DNA of 64,000 nt from the human T2T-CHM13v2.0 reference genome, Homo sapiens, in the NCBI RefSeq assembly GCF_009914755.1, contig NC_060940.1, one strand, 5' to 3'. Made by a program: the position numbers and the translations under genes. The notes beneath the pieces were generated by a model. It was not told the origin of the DNA. It saw only the letters and a program-made list of their open reading frames with translations, and did no database searches. The stretch's first letter is position 1. Every line of letters starts with the position of its first letter. Positions 38,959-50,900 of the stretch are shown in pieces.

Positions 38959-41900
38959 ATGGGCGCCTGGGCCTTCCCCGCAGCCCTTTTCCTTCTCTGC
39001 CTGACTTCCGAGAGCCTGCAAGGTGGTGAGGGCAGCTTGGGGCTGGGGGTTGGAGAATGGGCATCTGTGACTGGGGCTGGGGGTCCAAGTGGGGCCCTGG
39101 CCAGATGCTGGGGTTCTGGAGACAAGGAGGGCTGGGGTGTGGAAAGCCTGGTCTGGGCAGAGAATTCAGACAGTGAGGGTTTTTGGGGGCTGGAGGATAG
39201 ATGCCTGGGCGCTGCCCCATCTCAGCCTCTGGGGTCCCCAGCCTTGAGTCAGCACTGTCTTGCTTCCGCAGGGCTGCCCCTTCTGCCTCCTGGCCTGGGG
39301 AAAGGTAGGTGGGCCCTCTGGCACTGGGGTCAGGAAGAGTCTCCCATCTCTCCTGCCCTGGGGGTGTGGGAGCTCTCTGGGACTCCCGATGCGGGGCCCA
39401 GGAGAGCTCAGGGCCCTTGCTGTCTTCCGGGCAGGGAGTCTCATCAAGTGTCCACTCAAGGGTGGGGAGCACAGACACCCTGCACTCTCAGAAGAGTCTC
39501 CCGGGGCAGAACATGCAGCCCTGAGGACGGGCCTGGGCAGGCTGAGAAGGGTGGGCAGGTGTGACAGGAGGGGCGGACCCACCGGCAGGCCAAAGGGGGC
39601 CGGAGGGGGAGAGGAGGGAGGGGACAAGGAGAACTGAGCCTGCTGAGGGGCAGGAGGTGGAGTGTCATGGAAGAGTCTTTACTTCAGGCACCTGGGGGGT
39701 CCTAAGGGTAGGAGGAGGGGCTGCCCCTGAGCCCTGATGCATCTGAGCTTCAGGAGAGAAAGATGGGGGGCAGAGGTGGTGAGAAGAAGAGGAGGAGATT
39801 TCCATGAAGGGAGAGGAGCCCAGTACTGAGAATGGATGGGAGAGGAGAGGAAGAGGGTGGAGTGGGCTCTGCCCCACAGTCCCCCAGAGCCCTGGCTCAG
39901 ACACCTTCCTCCAGGCCCAGGGGCCCTCTAGCCTCCACTGCCCTAGCCCCAGACTGCTCACCTCCTCTGCCCTCTACCCTCCTGTGACAGCAGGGAAACT
40001 GAGACCTGGAAAGGGAGGTGGCATCCAGATTTGGGCCCCTTTGTCCCCTTGTAAGTTCCCCTGCTTCCCCCTGAACCCCACAGGCTTAGGGAGCCCAAAT
40101 GGCTACAGATCTGGTAAAGCTGGTGGCGGGGTGCTTGGGGAGGGTGGCACACCGGCTCCCAGCTGCTCCAGCACCCCGGGCTCAACATCTCACTTCTCCC
40201 ACAGTCTATGGCCCCCACAGTGGCCTGGGAGCAGGTGAGGCCTGGCATAGGGAAGGGAGGCGTCTGAGGGCAGGGCACGGGGCAGGGGGGAGGCAGGACA
40301 GGAACAGGGAAAGCTGGGCGGGGGGCAGGTAAAGGGGGAAGCAGTCGTCTCAGAAATACATGGGGACAGAGCATAGCCCCAGAGTGTCCCCCAGGCACCC
40401 TGGCTGGGGAGAGGGGAAGGCAGGCAGGAAGAAATGGAGCGGGGAGGGAAGAAAGGAAAGAGAGCAGAAAGGAAGGAGAGAGGGAAGGAGGGAGGGAAGG
40501 AGGCTGAAAGCACCCACCTGTGCCCCACAGCCCTCCCCCCTCATGGGAAGGGACTGAGTTCCCACAGGCCCACTGCTTGGATAGGCTGTGGGCCAGGTGT
40601 GGGGCTCTGGGGAGATCCTGGGGGAGGGGTGTCCCTCACCTCCCTGTCTCTCCAGGCTATGATGGGGGCGTGAAGCCACAGAAGCCAGGTGAGCCCTGCC
40701 CCGGCCCCAGCTCTTTGTCTCCCCCTCTTTCTCTCACACTCCTCACCTCACCTCATCTGTCTCTCCAGGATTCGTGGTCAGGCATGGGCTGGGAACCCAG
40801 CCAGGTGAGAGCCGTGGGGTCCCCTCCTTCCCTCCCTCCCAGGCCTCAGACGGAAGAGGCAGGATTGGAGAGATTGTTGGGGGGAGGCGCAGAGAGCCTC
40901 TCAGGTTTGCTGGTGTCTGGCTTAGTCCAAGGGGGGGTTCAAGGGTCTTGTACCCCCACCTCAGCTGGGACCCCAAACCTCCTCAGCTCACCTCTCTCTC
41001 TCCCACGAGCCCTTCCACTAAGAATGGCTATGGAGCAGGTAGAGATGGGAGTGGGGGAGCTGGAAGCCAGGATTCTAGGGGTATCCCTGGGATGGGGATT
41101 CCTGAGCCCCTCATCTGATCCCCCTCTCTTTCCCAGACACTGAAGGGGGCATGAAACCCCAAAACCTAGGTGAGGCTCGCCCAGCCCCTGCCTGCCTCCC
41201 TCCTCCTGACTCCCTCCTGCCTTCTCGCCCCAGGGTTCAGGACCTTCGCAGGTGCTGCAGCCCAGCCAGGTGAGGCTGGGGGAAGCGGGTAAGGAATGGG
41301 AGGGGCTTGGGGGTGCCTAATCTTTGCCTGATACTGTGGGGGAGGGAATGCAGCCAGATCGGTGTTTCCAGGGTCTTCTCCAGGCTCCCAGGCCTCAGAG
41401 AGGGCAGAACAGGTGGGTGTCTCACGGGAAGTGGGCAGGAGGGGACGGTGAGGAGTTCTGATGTCTGGCTTGGTAAGGGGACAGGGGCACCTGGGCCTCA
41501 CCCCTGCCTCAGCTCGGTGTGGCTGTGGAGCAGGGAGCCCAGGGCGGGGAGGTGGGGCCCCTTCATCTGCCCATCTCTCTTCCCAGGCTTTGGAGGGGCT
41601 GAGAAGCCCCAGAAGCCAGAGGCGAGGCCGCCCCACACCTGTCCCAGTGTCCACTTCCCACCCTCTGTCTCTGTCTCTGCTTGACGCCCCATTCCCCCTC
41701 CTCATGTCCCTCTGGCTCTGTCTCCCCAGGATATGGAAACGGGCTGGGAGCAGCGGCCTTCCCAGTGGCCGGAGCCCAGTCAGGTGAGGAAACGTCGGGT
41801 GTGGCAGGACCTGGGCTTCCAGGAGGGAGGGGGAAGGGGCAGAGCAGAGTCAGGGCACCAGGAGCTGGGAGAGCTGGGCTCTGGAGGGAGGGCAGGGCTC

Positions 41901-47900: not shown

Positions 47901-50900
47901 TCCCTGTCTCCCTCCCAGGCCTCCAGAGCAGGTGGACACCAAAATGAGGGAGGAGAGGTGGCGCCAGGATCCCTGGTTTCTGACTTGGCTCTGAAAGGGG
48001 ATCCAAAGGCCCTTCGCCCTCTCCTTAGCTAGAATCCCAAACCCCCTGCTCACCCCTCCCTCCCCACAGGCCCCTTAGCCCAGAATGGCTACAGAGCAGG
48101 TACTGGGGGGCTGGAGTTGCTGGGAGTGCAGAAAGGAGGAAAGAGGTGGGGGCCTGGCTCTCCCCTGACCCTGTACTGAGGGTTTTCTTGGGGGCTCCTG
48201 CAGCCTTAGACGGGGTAGAGTCTGGAGAGGAGGCGGCACAAGGGGGAGGGAGGTGCTGGGAGCTCCAGTTCCTAAATTGGGAGGAAAGGGGGGCCAGGCT
48301 CCAGCCCCCTTCTGTACCCCAACCTCTCCCCATGCCGCCCCCACAGACCCTGCAGTTCCCACTGGTCATGGACCAGGAAGGGGAGGTTGGCATGGGCACC
48401 AGGTGGGGGACAGATGCCAGGTCTGGAAGAGACCCCTCAGTGAGGAGTGGGCATGGGTCCCTCACCTACTCGCATCTCTCCAGGTGCTGGAGAGGGCATG
48501 AAACCTCAGAAGCCAGGTAAGCCCTTCCCACTCCTCACTCTCCCTACCTGCAGAAACTGCCTACCCCTCCACCCTTTTCCCCTCCCAAGCTGTACCCTGT
48601 CTCCCCATGGTGCAAGAACGGGCTGGAGCTGGAGCCTTCCTGTGGGAAGGAGCCCAGCCAGGTGAGGGAGGTGGGTGGGACCTGGAGCAGAGGGGAAGGA
48701 GGACAGGCTCCAACGGACAGAGTTGGGTCTCAGTGGGGGAAGGGGTGGGGTGGGGTGGGCCTGTCCATTATTCTCCATGGGTCTCTGGCCTGGGAGAGAG
48801 CCAGAAACCTCCAAAGCCGAGTTGCTCTCTGCCCCTCTTCCTGCCTTCTCCAAGGTCCCCCACTCCAACCCCGCCCTCATGCCCTGCTCTCCCTCCCAGG
48901 ATACACACCAGGGACCTGGCTGGGGCTCCTGCCAGGTGAAAAGACGGGGCTAGGGGGATCAGCAGGGGAGAGAGGGGTTCACTACACTCCTCGGGTGGGC
49001 TGATGTCTGAACTGGCCTCTTTCTGTCTCTCCCCAGGCCTGCGAGGGACCTTGAAGCCTCAGAAGTCAGGCGAGTGGGGGACCCCTGGCTCTGCCCCACA
49101 CCTCCTTCTGCCTCTCAGCCCTTCTAGCCTCTGCCCCCAGTGTTGCCACACTCATCTCTGCTTTCCCTCTCCAGGACACGGCCATGAAAATGGGCCCTGG
49201 CCAGGTGAGGCCACTGGGACCAGGGGTGGGGGCCCAGGAGGAAGGGAGAGGGAGGCTGCTGGAAGACGGAGGGGCCTCCATCAGGAGCCCCATCCCTGCC
49301 AGATCCCTACATCCCTCTATCCCCTGCCTGGATCCCCAGGTCCCCCCAGGAGAGTGTGGACCAAGGGAGCTGGGCTTTTTCCAGCCTGGCTAATGTCCCC
49401 CTAAGGTGCTGGGTCTGCCCTAGAAGCCACTACAGGCCGGTGGCTTGGCCAGGCCAAGGCCTCCTGGGTGGCGTCGGTGAGGACTGGCCTGGAGCATAGC
49501 CCCACCCCTCCCTTCCTTCCCATCGTAGGTCCCTGCAATGCGAGGGTCGCTCCGATGCTCCTCCCCAGGCTTCCCACTCCAGGGGTCCCTTCGGACAAAG
49601 AGGGTGGCTGGGGCCTGAAATCCCAGCCCCCTTCCGCAGTGCAGAATGGCAAGTTACCAGGTCAGTGTGGAGTGGGGGTGCCTAGGGGGCACTGGGAAGC
49701 ACCTGGCCCTATGAGGGTCAGGGCCTGGCTGCCATATCCCACTCTGTCCTCGGATGCCAAGGCTCAGAGAGGGCAGTGACTTGTCACACAGTGATCTGCT
49801 GAGGAGAAGCCTGAACTCTGGCCCTGGGACCCCATGTGGTCCCCAGTATGGGAGTCCTTTCCATCCCTGCCCCATGGCATCTGCAGTCTCTCAAGCCCTC
49901 GGCTGGGCTCACTCCTGCCCCTAACCTTCCTCCTAGCACCAATGCCAGCCATCCAGTGGGGACTGAAACCTCAGAAAGCAGGTGTGAGTCTGTCTGCCCC
50001 CAGGCCCCACATCCCAGAGGGACAAACTCTCAGCTAGGTCTATCCTCTGTCTCCACCCCAGATCAGGGTCACCCCTCCATCACCCTTTTTCCCTAGGCTG
50101 CCTCAGCTATTCAGGCACCCGAAGGCCAGGAAGTCCCTCCCCGAGTCTACCCTCTTGCTCTTTTTTTTTTTTTTTTTTTTTTTTGAGACAGTCTCGCTCT
50201 GTCGCCCAGGCTGGAATGCAGTGGTGCAATTTTGGCTCACTGCAAAATACGCCTCCCAAGTAGTTGGCATTACAGGCACGCACCACCATACCTGGCTAAT
50301 CTTTGTATTTTTGTAGAGTCGGGGTTTTGTCACATTGGACAGGCTGGTCTCAAACTCCTGGCTTCAAGTGATCAGCCCACCTCAGCCTCCCAAAGTGCTG
50401 GGATTACAGGCGTGAGCCACTGCGCCCAGTCTCTTGCTGCTCTCCAGATTTCTTCTGGTTCCATTCCCTGTGGACAGGAAAAGTCTCTGCTTCCCCTTCA
50501 GAGTCCCTAAGGTCGATCTTTGGCCTCCAAGGAGTCAGGGGAGACCTGGGTCCCCCGCACTGACTTCCTTTCTCCTCACAGGGCACCAGCCTCCAAATGG
50601 CTATGGACCGGGAGCAGAACCAGGTGAGGAGGCCCTTCCTGGAGTTCCTCCCCTCCCTTCCCTTCCTCTTCCCTCCTCTTCCTTCTGCCATCCCAGGAAG
50701 AGGGGAGGCCAGGGCTGTGGCTCTCGCTGACCCCCATCTCTGAGTCACAGTTTTCTCTCCCCCAGGTTTTAATGGTGGCCTCGAGCCACAGAAAATTGGT
50801 GAGTCCTCCTGCGCCCCCGACCCATGTTGAGCGGAAGCTGGCATCTCCCTCATGCCTGAGTCAGTCTGTCTGTCCGCATCCCCCTGTCTATGAGCTGGTC

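What the first reader, a model, noticed from the sequence alone, without database searches (positions are those of the whole stretch)
40205..49204. Repeating 30/33/36-nt exon triplet matching ELN exons 3-4-5
Seen: exons fall into three classes cycling A-B-C. A is 30 nt (GPxxQNGY/FxP/A), B is 33 nt (GxGGxxKPxKP) and C is 36, 54 or 60 nt (GxGNGxG...A/TQP). Clear triplets are 40205/40656/40769 and 45380/45488/45609. Recalled: human ELN exons 3, 4 and 5 are 30, 33 and 36 nt (GVFYPGAGLG / ALGPGGKPLKP / VPGGLAGAGLGA); the first GREP1 triplet reads [10 protein letters not shown] / [11 protein letters not shown] / [12 protein letters not shown]. Inference: GREP1 grew by tandem amplification of a three-exon module shared with elastin.
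Basis: partly seen in the sequence, partly recalled or inferred. Interest (0 to 1): 0.85.

Follow-up and report, generated by a model that had tools for sequence, protein, structure and literature searches.

The report
GREP1: elastin-style tandem mini-exon array
The core of the human GREP1 gene is about twenty tandem copies of a small three-exon unit built on the same cassette plan as the elastin gene, which may be its ancient relative, although the protein sequences alone do not show this.

Summary
The three exon classes are real. At the DNA level they are more regular than the annotation shows. Window 40040-51060 holds about 20 tandem copies of a 0.33-0.48 kb unit. Each unit carries mini-exons A (30 nt), B (33 nt, ends KPxKP) and C (36-63 nt) in fixed order, and introns were copied with the exons. 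Decayed copies explain the irregular order of annotated exons.

ELN exons 3, 4 and 5 are 30, 33 and 36 nt and in phase 1-1, as recalled.

Evidence for the link to elastin:
- Both genes use an all phase-1-1 mini-exon plan.
- A 33-nt exon ending KPxKP is found genome-wide only in GREP1 (6 hits), ELN exon 4 (1 hit) and one chance site.
- Both genes have two cysteines in a short last exon.
- Each gene lies beside one of the two most similar claudin pairs.

Evidence against:
- Composition-corrected protein similarity is nil (E = 4.1), and terminal alignments equal shuffles.
- A and C exons do not match ELN exons 3 and 5.
- Block-level synteny is weak.

Verdict: tandem amplification is shown; common descent with ELN is plausible (about 0.5) but unproven.

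The parts
38959..39022 (+). Exon 1, coding part (64 nt): start codon and hydrophobic signal sequence, ending in phase 1
   Evidence: Secretion was shown experimentally in bioRxiv 10.1101/2020.03.10.981001 (passages).
39272..39304 (+). Exon 2 (33 nt, [11 protein letters not shown]), phase 1-1, not a B-motif exon
40040..40420 (+). Unit 0: unannotated intact A-type candidate 40084-40113, plus annotated 30-nt exon 40205-40234 ([10 protein letters not shown]), which aligns at the B position and lacks the A motif
   Evidence: score 32 against a shuffle maximum of 17.5
40520..41012 (+). Unit 1: decayed A 40568-40596 (stop, 29 nt), B 40656-40688, C 40769-40804
   Evidence: score 95.5
40990..41482 (+). 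Unit 2: A copy 41009-41038 (acceptor lost), unannotated intact B copy 41137-41169, C 41234-41269
   Evidence: score 78.5
41500..41830 (+). Unit 3: B copy from 41587 (donor lost), long C 41730-41783 (54 nt)
   Evidence: score 56.5
41833..42140 (+). Unit 4: B copy 41922-41954, reused as the 3' end of alternative first exon 41846-41954; long C 42060-42119 (60 nt)
   Evidence: score 50.5
42542..42900 (+). Unit 6: decayed A, B copy 42668-42700 and a long C-type end (to 42853), all inside alternative exon 42559-42853
   Evidence: score 63
42943..43400 (+). Unit 7: only C survives (43085-43120)
   Evidence: score 31.5
43440..43830 (+). Unit 8: A 43487-43516, B 43613-43645, decayed C near 43749
   Evidence: score 70
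45341..45860 (+). Unit 9 (reference unit): A 45380-45409, B 45488-45520, C 45609-45644, with introns of 78 and 88 nt
45840..46216 (+). Unit 10: truncated A near 45841-45861, B 45965-45997, C 46083-46118
   Evidence: score 94
46262..46620 (+). Unit 11: A 46300-46335 (36 nt), B 46420-46452, long C 46538-46591 (54 nt)
   Evidence: score 68.5
46950..47260 (+). Unit 12: decayed B near 47053, C 47177-47212
   Evidence: score 42
47250..47560 (+). Unit 13: B 47354-47386 only
   Evidence: score 38
47588..48060 (+). Unit 14: A copy 47626-47655 with donor GA instead of GT, read through the 78-nt former intron into B 47734-47766. This forms the 141-nt exon; a 33-nt alternative is also annotated. Decayed C near 47850.
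   Evidence: score 163.5
48060..48320 (+). Unit 15: unannotated intact A-type candidate 48070-48099 only
   Evidence: score 38.5
48325..48700 (+). Unit 16: A copy 48347-48376 (donor lost), B 48484-48516, frameshifted C near 48609-48661
   Evidence: score 66.5
48700..49000 (+). Unit 17: decayed A and B, C 48900-48935 (cassette exon in 10 of 19 transcripts)
   Evidence: (score 40)
48960..49260 (+). Unit 18: B 49037-49069 (GC donor), shortened C 49175-49204 (30 nt)
   Evidence: score 40
49529..49660 (+). Non-repeated 132-nt exon, phase 1-1, holding the third cysteine of the mature protein
   Evidence: no Pfam family
50540..51060 (+). Last, weaker units: A-like 50582-50623 (42 nt), B 50766-50798, C-like 50972-51034 (63 nt)
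   Evidence: scores 31.5 and 29
51394..52014 (+). Non-repeated C-terminal exons 51394-51507 and 51961-52014, phase 1-1
52241..52266 (+). Last coding exon (26 nt with the stop): GRCPLGKC, two cysteines around LGK. Compare the ELN last exon, GGACLGKACGRKRK.
   Evidence: Not above shuffles as an alignment.

Best explanation
The finding covers the core of GREP1, a gene for a secreted, glycine-rich, disordered matrix protein.

Shown:
- Window 40040-51060 holds about 20 tandem copies of a 0.33-0.48 kb genomic unit.
- Each unit carries three mini-exons in fixed order. A is 30 nt with GPxxQNGYxP. B is 33 nt ending in the lysine pair KPxKP. C is 36-63 nt, mostly ending QP.
- Units were copied whole, introns included.
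- Many exon copies have since lost a splice site or their frame. This is why the annotated exons look irregular.
- All introns are in phase 1 and all exons are multiples of 3 nt, so any subset splices in frame. RefSeq lists 19 transcripts that encode 19 different proteins.

Inferred:
- The array grew by repeated unequal crossing-over.
- The protein is a string of flexible Gly/Pro/Gln/Asn segments punctuated about every 33 residues by a KPxK lysine pair. These pairs resemble the KP-type cross-linking domains of tropoelastin.
- GREP1 is therefore probably stitched into the matrix through these lysines, by lysyl oxidase or, with its many glutamines, by transglutaminase. Isoform length would be set by cassette splicing.

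Relation to elastin:
- The design is that of the elastin gene.
- Descent of the two genes from one ancestor is about an even bet (roughly 0.5).
- One-to-one homology of the A-B-C unit with ELN exons 3-4-5 is less likely (about 0.2).
For: Array:
- blastn of the gene against itself gives 88 intragenic pairs at E <= 1e-3 that span introns. The best are 71% over 557 bp and 62% over 783 bp.
- An nhmmer unit model finds copies from 40057 to 50807.
- 19 of 21 candidate units score 29-163.5 against the reference unit. The shuffle maximum is 24.5, and the maximum of 43 control pieces of the same window is 22.5.
- Aligned intron columns are 0.65-0.86 identical and exon columns 0.67-0.80, over 15 unit pairs.
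- 34 of 35 exon copies have a nearest neighbour of the same class.
- A whole-genome DNA search with three units finds only GREP1 itself.

Cassette plan:
- All internal exons are multiples of 3 nt and in phase 1.
- GREP1 has a run of 31 such exons. The next best of 852 chr16 genes has 7.
- 19 transcripts give 19 proteins.

Elastin link:
- All 32 predicted internal ELN exons are in phase 1-1, and exons 3-5 are 30/33/36 nt. Keeley's preprint 10.1101/2024.12.03.626628 says all tropoelastin splice sites are phase 1:1 (passages).
- A 30,33,36 run arises in 389 of 200,000 permutations of the ELN inner exons.
- The pattern 'AG, 17 nt, K-P-x-K-P codons, G, GTRAG' has 8 hits in the whole genome: 6 in GREP1, 1 at ELN exon 4, and 1 AT-rich site on chr10. 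The reversed control gives 0.
- Lysine content is 5.0% in GREP1 and 4.8% in ELN.
- Both last coding exons are short and hold two cysteines around LGK.
- GREP1 lies 10.8 kb from CLDN9/CLDN6, and ELN lies 198 kb from CLDN4/CLDN3. Only 173 of 20,089 protein-coding genes lie within 250 kb of any claudin gene.
- CLDN3/4 and CLDN6/9 are 59-65% identical. This is the closest cross-locus pairing among the 10 single-exon claudins in the identity table.

Biology from papers:
- GREP1 is secreted, disordered, and pulls down fibronectin and EMILIN2 (passages).
- Mouse Grep1 is expressed in the inner annulus fibrosus (passages).
Against: - blastp of spliced GREP1 against spliced ELN with composition-based statistics gives a best E of 4.1. 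The E of 3e-29 without the correction reflects composition.
- Smith-Waterman against shuffles gives z = 0.77 for the N-terminal parts (440 of 2000 shuffles as good) and z = 0.19 for the C-terminal parts (806 of 2000). Only the full-length comparison stands out (z = 5.5, 0 of 300), and a plain shuffle is a weak null for periodic sequence.
- DNA profiles of A and C find nothing at ELN exons 3 or 5. The B profile hits ELN exon 4 with 12.6 bits, but a control stretch of the window scores 13.1 bits.
- ELN3 and ELN5 do not group with A and C.
- Composition differs. GREP1 has N+Q 10.3%, plus His, Trp and Met. ELN has N+Q 1.1% and none of the other three. A+V is 13% in GREP1 and 35.5% in ELN.
- GREP1 has no poly-alanine KA domains and no RKRK tail.
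- Block synteny is weak. The GREP1 and ELN neighbourhoods share only 2 gene-name roots. In the scan from the GREP1 side, 33 of 2084 windows reach that level.
- The two claudin pairs have different orientations.
- The claudin tree leaves the 3/4, 6/9 and 5 relation unresolved.
- No cross-species data could be obtained.
Confidence: 0.6

Rival explanations
1. Convergence. GREP1 is unrelated to ELN. Both are disordered Gly/Pro/Lys-rich matrix proteins. A phase 1-1 mini-exon plan, KP lysine pairs and small exon sizes could arise independently, with GREP1's own array producing its 30/33/36 sizes.
For: - No composition-corrected similarity (E = 4.1).
- The N- and C-terminal alignments equal shuffles.
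- A and C exons do not match ELN exons 3 and 5.
- The B DNA profile does no better on ELN than on control sequence.
- Composition is very different.
- Block synteny is weak.
Against: Several independent coincidences would be needed:
- An exclusive phase 1-1 plan that is rare: 1 of 852 chr16 genes.
- The same 33-nt KPxKP exon, found nowhere else in the genome apart from one chance site.
- The ordered 30/33/36 run (389 of 200,000 permutations).
- Two cysteines around LGK in a short last exon.
- Both genes lying next to the two most similar claudin pairs.
Confidence: 0.4
2. The A-B-C unit is the direct counterpart of ELN exons 3-4-5, an ancestral three-exon module that was amplified in GREP1 and kept single in ELN.
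For: - The sizes are identical, in the same order and phase.
- B resembles ELN exon 4.
- The run occupies exons 3-5 in both annotated genes.
Against: - GREP1 exons 3-5 are not one unit. Exon 40205 belongs to the preceding unit and lacks the A motif.
- ELN exon 3 shares 2 of 10 residues with exon 40205 when the peptides are compared by eye in register. Its nearest neighbours are B copies, not A.
- ELN exon 5 has no C neighbour above 0.12.
- The A and C profiles find nothing at those ELN exons.
Confidence: 0.2
3. Annotation artefact. The locus, formerly named LINC00514, is non-coding and the exon classes are spurious open frames.
For: The locus was once annotated as a lncRNA (PMC9877250, passages). 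No Pfam family matches the three largest exon pieces.
Against: - All 34 annotated exons between the first and the last listed are multiples of 3 nt and open in one phase.
- Decayed copies with stops or lost splice sites are skipped by the annotation.
- Translation, secretion and a knock-out phenotype are reported (passages).
Confidence: 0.02

Closest known systems
Tropoelastin gene (ELN, chr7q11.23)
   Same: - A signal-peptide exon ends in phase 1, and every later exon is a small cassette in phase 1-1.
- Glycine-rich exons alternate with exons ending in a proline-flanked lysine pair (ELN exon 4 KPLKP, GREP1 B exons KPQKP or KPLKP).
- Part of each gene grew by copying exon groups. ELN's 'replicated region' is made of exon pairs with 60-100 nt introns (Keeley preprint, passages).
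- Lysine content is about 5% in both.
- A short last exon holds two cysteines.
- A closely related claudin pair lies nearby.
   Different: - GREP1 has no significant sequence similarity to ELN after composition correction.
- It is far more polar (N, Q, R, H, W and M are present) and poor in Ala and Val.
- It has no KA (poly-alanine) cross-linking domains, no VPGVG-type repeats and no RKRK end.
- Its repeat unit is three exons, not two.
- It is not next to a LIM-kinase gene.
- The gene is 13.7 kb against 41.7 kb for ELN.
Lamprin and other glycine-rich elastin-like matrix proteins of cartilage (recalled, not tested here)
   Same: Glycine- and tyrosine-rich short repeats in a cartilage-type matrix. 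Mouse Grep1 is expressed in the fibrocartilaginous inner annulus fibrosus.
   Different: 'Lamprin' occurs 0 times in the Keeley preprint.
Fibrillar collagen genes (54-nt exon arrays)
   Same: Matrix genes built from many short exons of fixed size classes that arose by exon duplication.
   Different: From established knowledge, collagen exons begin with intact glycine codons (phase 0) and encode Gly-X-Y triplets. GREP1 exons are in phase 1 and have no Gly-X-Y periodicity.
Cornified-envelope precursors (loricrin, SPRR, involucrin; recalled)
   Same: Gly-rich or Gln/Lys-rich repetitive proteins that are cross-linked through Gln and Lys by transglutaminase. GREP1's KPQKP motifs and QP exon ends offer both residues.
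   Different: From established knowledge, those genes carry their repeats within a single coding exon and lie in the epidermal differentiation complex on chr1. GREP1's repeats are separate exons.

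Membership tests
Elastin (tropoelastin) gene family | All coding exons are cassette-like, with every intron in phase 1:1 | tested here: met
   GREP1: and a run of 31 such exons. ELN: and the Keeley preprint passages.
Elastin (tropoelastin) gene family | Separate exons for hydrophobic domains and for lysine-pair cross-linking domains, alternating along the gene | tested here: inconclusive
   B exons carry proline-flanked lysine pairs of the KP type; 7 of 10 annotated B exons keep both lysines. 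They alternate with Gly-rich A and C exons. There is no KA-type (poly-alanine) domain, and the A and C exons are polar rather than hydrophobic.
Elastin (tropoelastin) gene family | Statistically significant sequence similarity to tropoelastin | tested here: not met
   blastp with composition correction gives E = 4.1. N- and C-terminal Smith-Waterman scores lie within shuffles.
Elastin (tropoelastin) gene family | Composition dominated by G, A, V and P, with no His, Trp or Met in the mature protein (Keeley preprint) | tested here: not met
   GREP1 has G 24.5, P 14.2, A 8.8, V 4.2, N 4.6, Q 5.7, H 1.7, W 1.3 and M 1.1 percent.
Elastin (tropoelastin) gene family | C-terminal domain with the protein's only two cysteines and a terminal RKRK | tested here: inconclusive
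   The last GREP1 exon has two cysteines around LGK, as ELN has. There is no RKRK, a third cysteine lies in exon 49529-49660, and the alignment is not above shuffles.
Elastin (tropoelastin) gene family | Linkage to a LIM-kinase gene (all tropoelastin genes are syntenic with LIMK1; Keeley preprint) | tested here: not met
   GREP1's neighbours are PKMYT1 and CLDN9. LIMK2 is on chr22.
Elastin (tropoelastin) gene family | Lysyl-oxidase cross-linking and coacervation of the protein | not testable with these tools
   This needs biochemistry.
ELN ohnologue (paralogue from the vertebrate genome duplications) | Location in a chromosome block paralogous to 7q11.23 | tested here: inconclusive
   Both genes lie beside the most similar claudin pairs. 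NCF1/NOXO1 and other named pairs lie on 7q11.23 and 16p (their paralogy is taken from gene names and recall). A name-root scan ranks 12q24 and 16p11.2 as partners of the ELN block, not 16p13.3, which shares only 2 roots.
ELN ohnologue (paralogue from the vertebrate genome duplications) | Orthologues of both genes present across jawed vertebrates | not testable with these tools
   Only the human genome was open.
Tandem exon-unit arrays grown by unequal crossing-over | Copies alike over introns as well as exons, head to tail, in constant internal order | tested here: met

The most novel reading that the evidence does not exclude
GREP1 is the overlooked second member of the elastin gene family in amniotes. 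It would be an ohnologue of ELN kept beside CLDN6/CLDN9, as ELN is kept beside CLDN3/CLDN4. It would have swapped hydrophobic elastomeric exons for polar Gly/Gln/Asn ones while keeping three things: the phase 1-1 cassette plan, the KP-type lysine-pair exon, and the C-terminal cysteine pair. On this reading it works as a lysine-cross-linked, splice-tunable matrix polymer of fibrocartilage and of some carcinomas.
Probability: 0.45. Interest if true: 0.8.

Novelty: new member of a known kind. Interest (0 to 1): 0.6.

Why it matters
Elastin is treated as a single-copy gene without relatives in amniotes. [quoted passage not shown]

GREP1 was a lncRNA entry until 2020-2022. It is known only as a secreted, glycine-rich protein needed by some breast cancer lines, and as a marker of the inner annulus fibrosus.

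Recognising that it is built like elastin leads to testable ideas:
- A biochemical hypothesis: lysine-pair cross-linking into the matrix, with isoform length tuned by cassette splicing.
- Candidate partners: LOX-family enzymes, transglutaminase, and EMILIN and fibronectin, which are already seen in pull-downs.
- An evolutionary question that public vertebrate genomes can answer.

The array also explains the confusing RefSeq isoform set and points to unannotated cassette exons.

None of my searches found a paper that links GREP1 with elastin. The journal version of the GREP1 paper and all supplements were not visible to me, and they may say more.

Tried and rejected
Pfam on the three largest exon-encoded pieces gave 0 families.
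- Tandem Repeats Finder on 38900-52700 found only three short simple repeats and missed the array, because the copies are under about 70% alike.
- Rfam on 38000-53500 gave 0 matches.
- The tail of the first nhmmer unit model (positions about 420-500) matched dispersed copies all over the window. It had picked up an interspersed repeat at 46611-46914, so I ignored that part.
- The apparent 300-bp 'tandem repeat' at 44040-45207 corresponds to masked interspersed repeats, not to part of the array.
- DNA profiles of A, B and C against the ELN locus gave nothing beyond control level.
- Protein alignment statistics gave no support once composition was controlled.
- A name-based paralogy scan supports ELN with 12q24 and 16p11.2, but only weakly with 16p13.3.
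- A literature search for claudin 3/4/6/9 with 'genome duplication' found 0 papers. 'Tropoelastin, paralog, claudin' found 3 irrelevant papers.
- The relaxed pattern without the acceptor gave 20 hits against 7 in the reversed control. None of the 13 hits outside GREP1 and ELN lies in a matrix gene.
- I did not use the search for homologous proteins or the Atlas. The longest contiguous coding piece is 47 residues, so full-length relatives fall outside the length window and a blank would mean nothing.
- No structure was predicted, because the protein is reported as disordered.
- I considered and rejected a collagen-like reading (wrong phase, no Gly-X-Y).

Full report
WHAT IS THERE. The finding lies inside GREP1 (window 38944-52691, + strand). 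I translated every annotated coding exon in its frame. The first coding exon has 64 nt, so it ends in phase 1. Every later exon except the last is a multiple of 3 nt, so all introns are in phase 1. Most exons start with G and end ...CCAG before the GT. The exons form three classes.
- A: 30 nt, GPxxQNGY/FxP (43487, 45380; 46300 is a 36-nt version).
- B: 33 nt, ending KPQKP or a variant. There are ten annotated copies: 40656, 43613, 45488, 45965, 46420, 47354, 47734, 48484, 49037 and 50766. Seven of them keep both lysines.
- C: 36 nt (40769, 41234, 43085, 45609, 46083, 47177, 48900), 54 nt (41730, 46538), 60 nt (42060) or 63 nt (50972), mostly ending QP.

THE ARRAY. A blastn of 38800-52800 against itself gave 88 pairs at E <= 1e-3.
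- The long pairs span introns: 45361-45894 with 47608-48132 (71%, 557 bp), 40562-41274 with 45374-46123 (62%, 783 bp), and 45421-46110 with 45896-46559. The last pair gives a period of about 470 bp.
- An nhmmer model built from three units found copies from 40057 to 50807.
- I aligned 21 candidate stretches to the reference unit 45341-45700 and calibrated the scores. Nineteen scored 29-163.5. The best of 100 shuffles of any stretch scored 24.5, and the best of 43 control pieces from elsewhere in the window scored 22.5. Two stretches (42144-42540 at 24, and 51043-51320 at 18) are at noise level, and I dropped them.
- With the reference unit this makes about 20 units between 40040 and 51060.
- In each unit the copies lie in the order A, B, C.
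- Many copies are decayed. Some have stops or frameshifts (40568, 48609). Some have lost acceptors (41009, 42668). Some have lost donors (41587, 48347).
- This decay explains why the annotated order (ABC CCCC AB ABC BC ABC ...) looks irregular.
- Over 15 pairs of six good units, aligned intron columns are 0.65-0.86 identical and exon columns 0.67-0.80. Whole units were therefore copied, and the exons are not better kept than the short introns.
- With 25 nt of flank, 34 of 35 exon copies have a nearest GREP1 neighbour of their own class. The exception is 49175, which groups with C.
- A whole-genome DNA search with three units finds only GREP1 itself.
- Tandem Repeats Finder misses the array because the copies are too diverged.

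- The triplet 45380/45488/45609 is a true unit, and so is 46300/46420/46538.
- The 'first triplet' is not a unit. A decayed A copy sits at 40568-40596 just before B 40656. Exon 40205 ([10 protein letters not shown]) belongs to the preceding unit, where it aligns weakly at the B position after an unannotated A-type candidate at 40084-40113.
- Exon 49175 is a shortened C.
- The 141-nt exon 47626-47766 is an A copy whose donor reads GA. It is read through the 78-nt former intron into a B copy.

ELASTIN. No chr7 exon table was available, so I fetched the ELN locus from the same reference. I searched it for phase 1-1 open exons with AG and GT.
- The chain of 34 exons splices into one open frame of 753 codons ending in the known basic tail.
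- The exon sizes are 82, 51, 30, 33, 36, 93, 51, 51, 42, 72, 30, ... nt.
- Their peptides are GAGLGALGGG, ALGPGGKPLKP and VPGGLAGAGLGA.
- Keeley's preprint (10.1101/2024.12.03.626628; section 3.1 read in full, other parts as passages) states several relevant points. All tropoelastin splice sites are phase 1:1. Part of the gene arose by replication of exon pairs with introns as short as 60-100 nt. Domain 36 holds the only two cysteines and ends RKRK. Tropoelastin lacks His, Trp and Met. No amniote shows more than one tropoelastin gene.

EVIDENCE FOR A LINK.
1. The all phase-1-1 mini-exon plan is rare. On chr16, GREP1 has a run of 31 such exons, and the next of 852 genes has 7.
2. A 30,33,36 run appears in 389 of 200,000 random orders of ELN's inner exons, and at exons 3-5 in 9. 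This test is post hoc.
3. A pattern written from the GREP1 B exons was AG, 17 nt, the codons for K-P-x-K-P, G, then GTRAG. It has 8 hits in the 3.1-Gb genome: six in GREP1, one at ELN exon 4, and one AT-rich site on chr10 with an in-frame stop. The reversed control gave 0. Without the acceptor and length constraints there are 20 hits against 7 control hits, and none of the 13 others lies in a matrix gene.
4. The four nearest neighbours of ELN exon 4 among all exon copies are B copies. ELN exon 8, another KP exon, also groups with B.
5. Both last coding exons are short and carry two cysteines around LGK.
6. Lysine makes up 5.0% of GREP1 and 4.8% of ELN.
7. GREP1 lies 10.8 kb from CLDN9/CLDN6, and ELN lies 198 kb from CLDN4/CLDN3.
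- Only 173 of 20,089 protein-coding genes lie within 250 kb of any of the 24 claudin genes. Only 36 lie within 250 kb of the CLDN6/9 or CLDN5 loci.
- In the identity table of 10 single-exon claudins, CLDN3/4 and CLDN6/9 are 59-65% identical. Identity to CLDN5 is 50-56%, and to CLDN8/17 it is 44-49%.
- Thirteen of the 24 claudin genes were not fetched: the multi-exon genes and CLDN34.

EVIDENCE AGAINST A LINK.
- With composition-based statistics, blastp finds nothing (best E = 4.1). The E of 3e-29 without correction is due to composition.
- Against residue shuffles, the N-terminal parts give z = 0.77 (440 of 2000 shuffles as good) and the C-terminal parts give z = 0.19 (806 of 2000). Only the full-length comparison stands out (z = 5.5, 0 of 300), and a plain shuffle is a weak null for periodic low-complexity sequence.
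- DNA profiles of A and C find nothing at ELN exons 3 and 5. The B profile's hit on ELN exon 4 (12.6 bits) is matched by a control hit (13.1 bits).
- ELN exons 3 and 5 do not group with A and C.
- GREP1 is much more polar and contains His, Trp and Met. It has no KA domains and no RKRK.
- The claudin tree leaves the relation of the 3/4, 6/9 and 5 groups unresolved, and the two claudin pairs are oriented differently.
- A crude scan by gene-name roots ranks chr12:120-124.5 Mb (4 shared roots) and chr16:28.5-31.5 Mb (3 shared roots) as partners of the ELN block. The GREP1 neighbourhood shares only 2 roots with it. In the scan from the GREP1 side, 33 of 2084 windows reach that level.
- Named pairs such as NCF1/NOXO1, BICDL1/2, MMP17/25, KREMEN1/2 and LIMK1/2 fit a four-way paralogy of 7q11, 12q24, 16p and 22q. 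Their paralogy rests on names and recall, not on tests made here.

HOW IT MOST LIKELY WORKS.
Shown:
- There is a signal-type first exon and a cassette design in which any subset of exons stays in frame.
- RefSeq lists 19 transcripts (6 curated, 13 predicted) that encode 19 different proteins of 215-519 residues. Exons 46083, 46538, 48900, 50972 and others are used variably.
From the paper (passages):
- The protein is secreted, cleaved, glycine-rich and disordered. It pulls down fibronectin and EMILIN2.
- 'Elastin' occurs 0 times in that text.
- Mouse Grep1 marks the inner annulus fibrosus (passages).
Inferred:
- The array grew by unequal crossing-over.
- The regularly spaced KPxK pairs serve as cross-linking sites, like tropoelastin's KP domains. 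The enzyme could be lysyl oxidase. Given the many glutamines next to the lysines, it could instead be transglutaminase.
- Splicing sets the number of such sites.
- A rough age follows from the aligned intron columns (0.65-0.86 identity) and recalled mammalian neutral rates. The unit copies would be tens of millions to more than 100 million years old. Gene conversion could make them look younger.

COMPARISON AND NOVELTY. The closest known system is the tropoelastin gene.
- GREP1 works like it in gene design and probably in its lysine chemistry.
- It fails several membership tests: sequence similarity, composition, KA domains, the RKRK tail and LIMK linkage.
- I therefore call it an elastin-style gene and a candidate ancient paralogue, not a tropoelastin.
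- I found no paper that links GREP1 with elastin. I searched GREP1 (30 papers), the full gene name (1 paper), GREP1 plus elastin (1 paper, about a snail protein), the mouse alias (5 papers), elastin/ohnolog/tropoelastin and tropoelastin/paralog/claudin (3 irrelevant papers).
- The journal version of the GREP1 paper and all supplements were not visible and may bear on this.

VERDICT.
- Tandem amplification of a three-exon unit is shown (about 0.95).
- The elastin-type design is shown.
- Common descent with ELN is plausible but unproven (about 0.5).
- One-to-one homology of the A-B-C unit with ELN exons 3-5 is unlikely to be demonstrable from human sequence alone (about 0.2).

Noticed in passing
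window 40084-40113, 41137-41169, 48070-48099: Three mini-exon copies (A, B and A type) have an AG acceptor, a GT donor and an open phase-1 frame, but none is in any RefSeq transcript. They may be unannotated cassette exons or recently silenced ones.
   Followed up: partly
window 47626-47766: The 141-nt exon is an A copy whose donor reads GA instead of GT. It is read in frame through the 78-nt former intron into the next B copy. RefSeq also lists the 33-nt B-only form.
   Followed up: yes
window 41846-41954 and 42559-42853: Both alternative first exons end in, or contain, old B and C copies of the array, so decayed coding units have been reused as 5' exons. The open frame predicted from 42670 starts inside a relic B copy.
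   Followed up: partly
window 45341-48060 (unit pairs): Between units, aligned intron columns are as alike as exon columns or more so. For example, 0.86 against 0.75 for 45361-45700 with 47608-47940. This could reflect constraint on the very short introns, gene conversion, or fast change in the exons.
   Followed up: no
window 49037-49069: This B exon is in all 19 transcripts and uses a GC donor rather than GT.
   Followed up: no
window 44096-44671, 44902-45212, 46611-46914, 50150-50434: Masked interspersed repeats of about 300 bp lie in GREP1 introns, with related copies elsewhere in the window. They caused a false 'tandem repeat' signal and false hits of my first unit model. The repeat family was not identified.
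   Followed up: partly
window 45609-45644 / 45609-45653: This C exon has two annotated donors 9 nt apart (36 nt in 8 transcripts, 45 nt in 11). In this gene, in-frame shifts of exon ends are tolerated.
   Followed up: no
G000 chr10:51487901-51487940: This is the only hit of the KPxKP-exon pattern outside GREP1 and ELN. It is AT-rich, has an in-frame stop and lies in no annotated gene, so I take it for chance.
   Followed up: yes
G000 chr17:6-9 Mb: In the crude name-root scan, the region around CLDN7 (with KCTD11, NAA38 and NTN1) shares the most roots (4) with the GREP1 neighbourhood. It may be a further paralogous block, or it may be noise.
   Followed up: no
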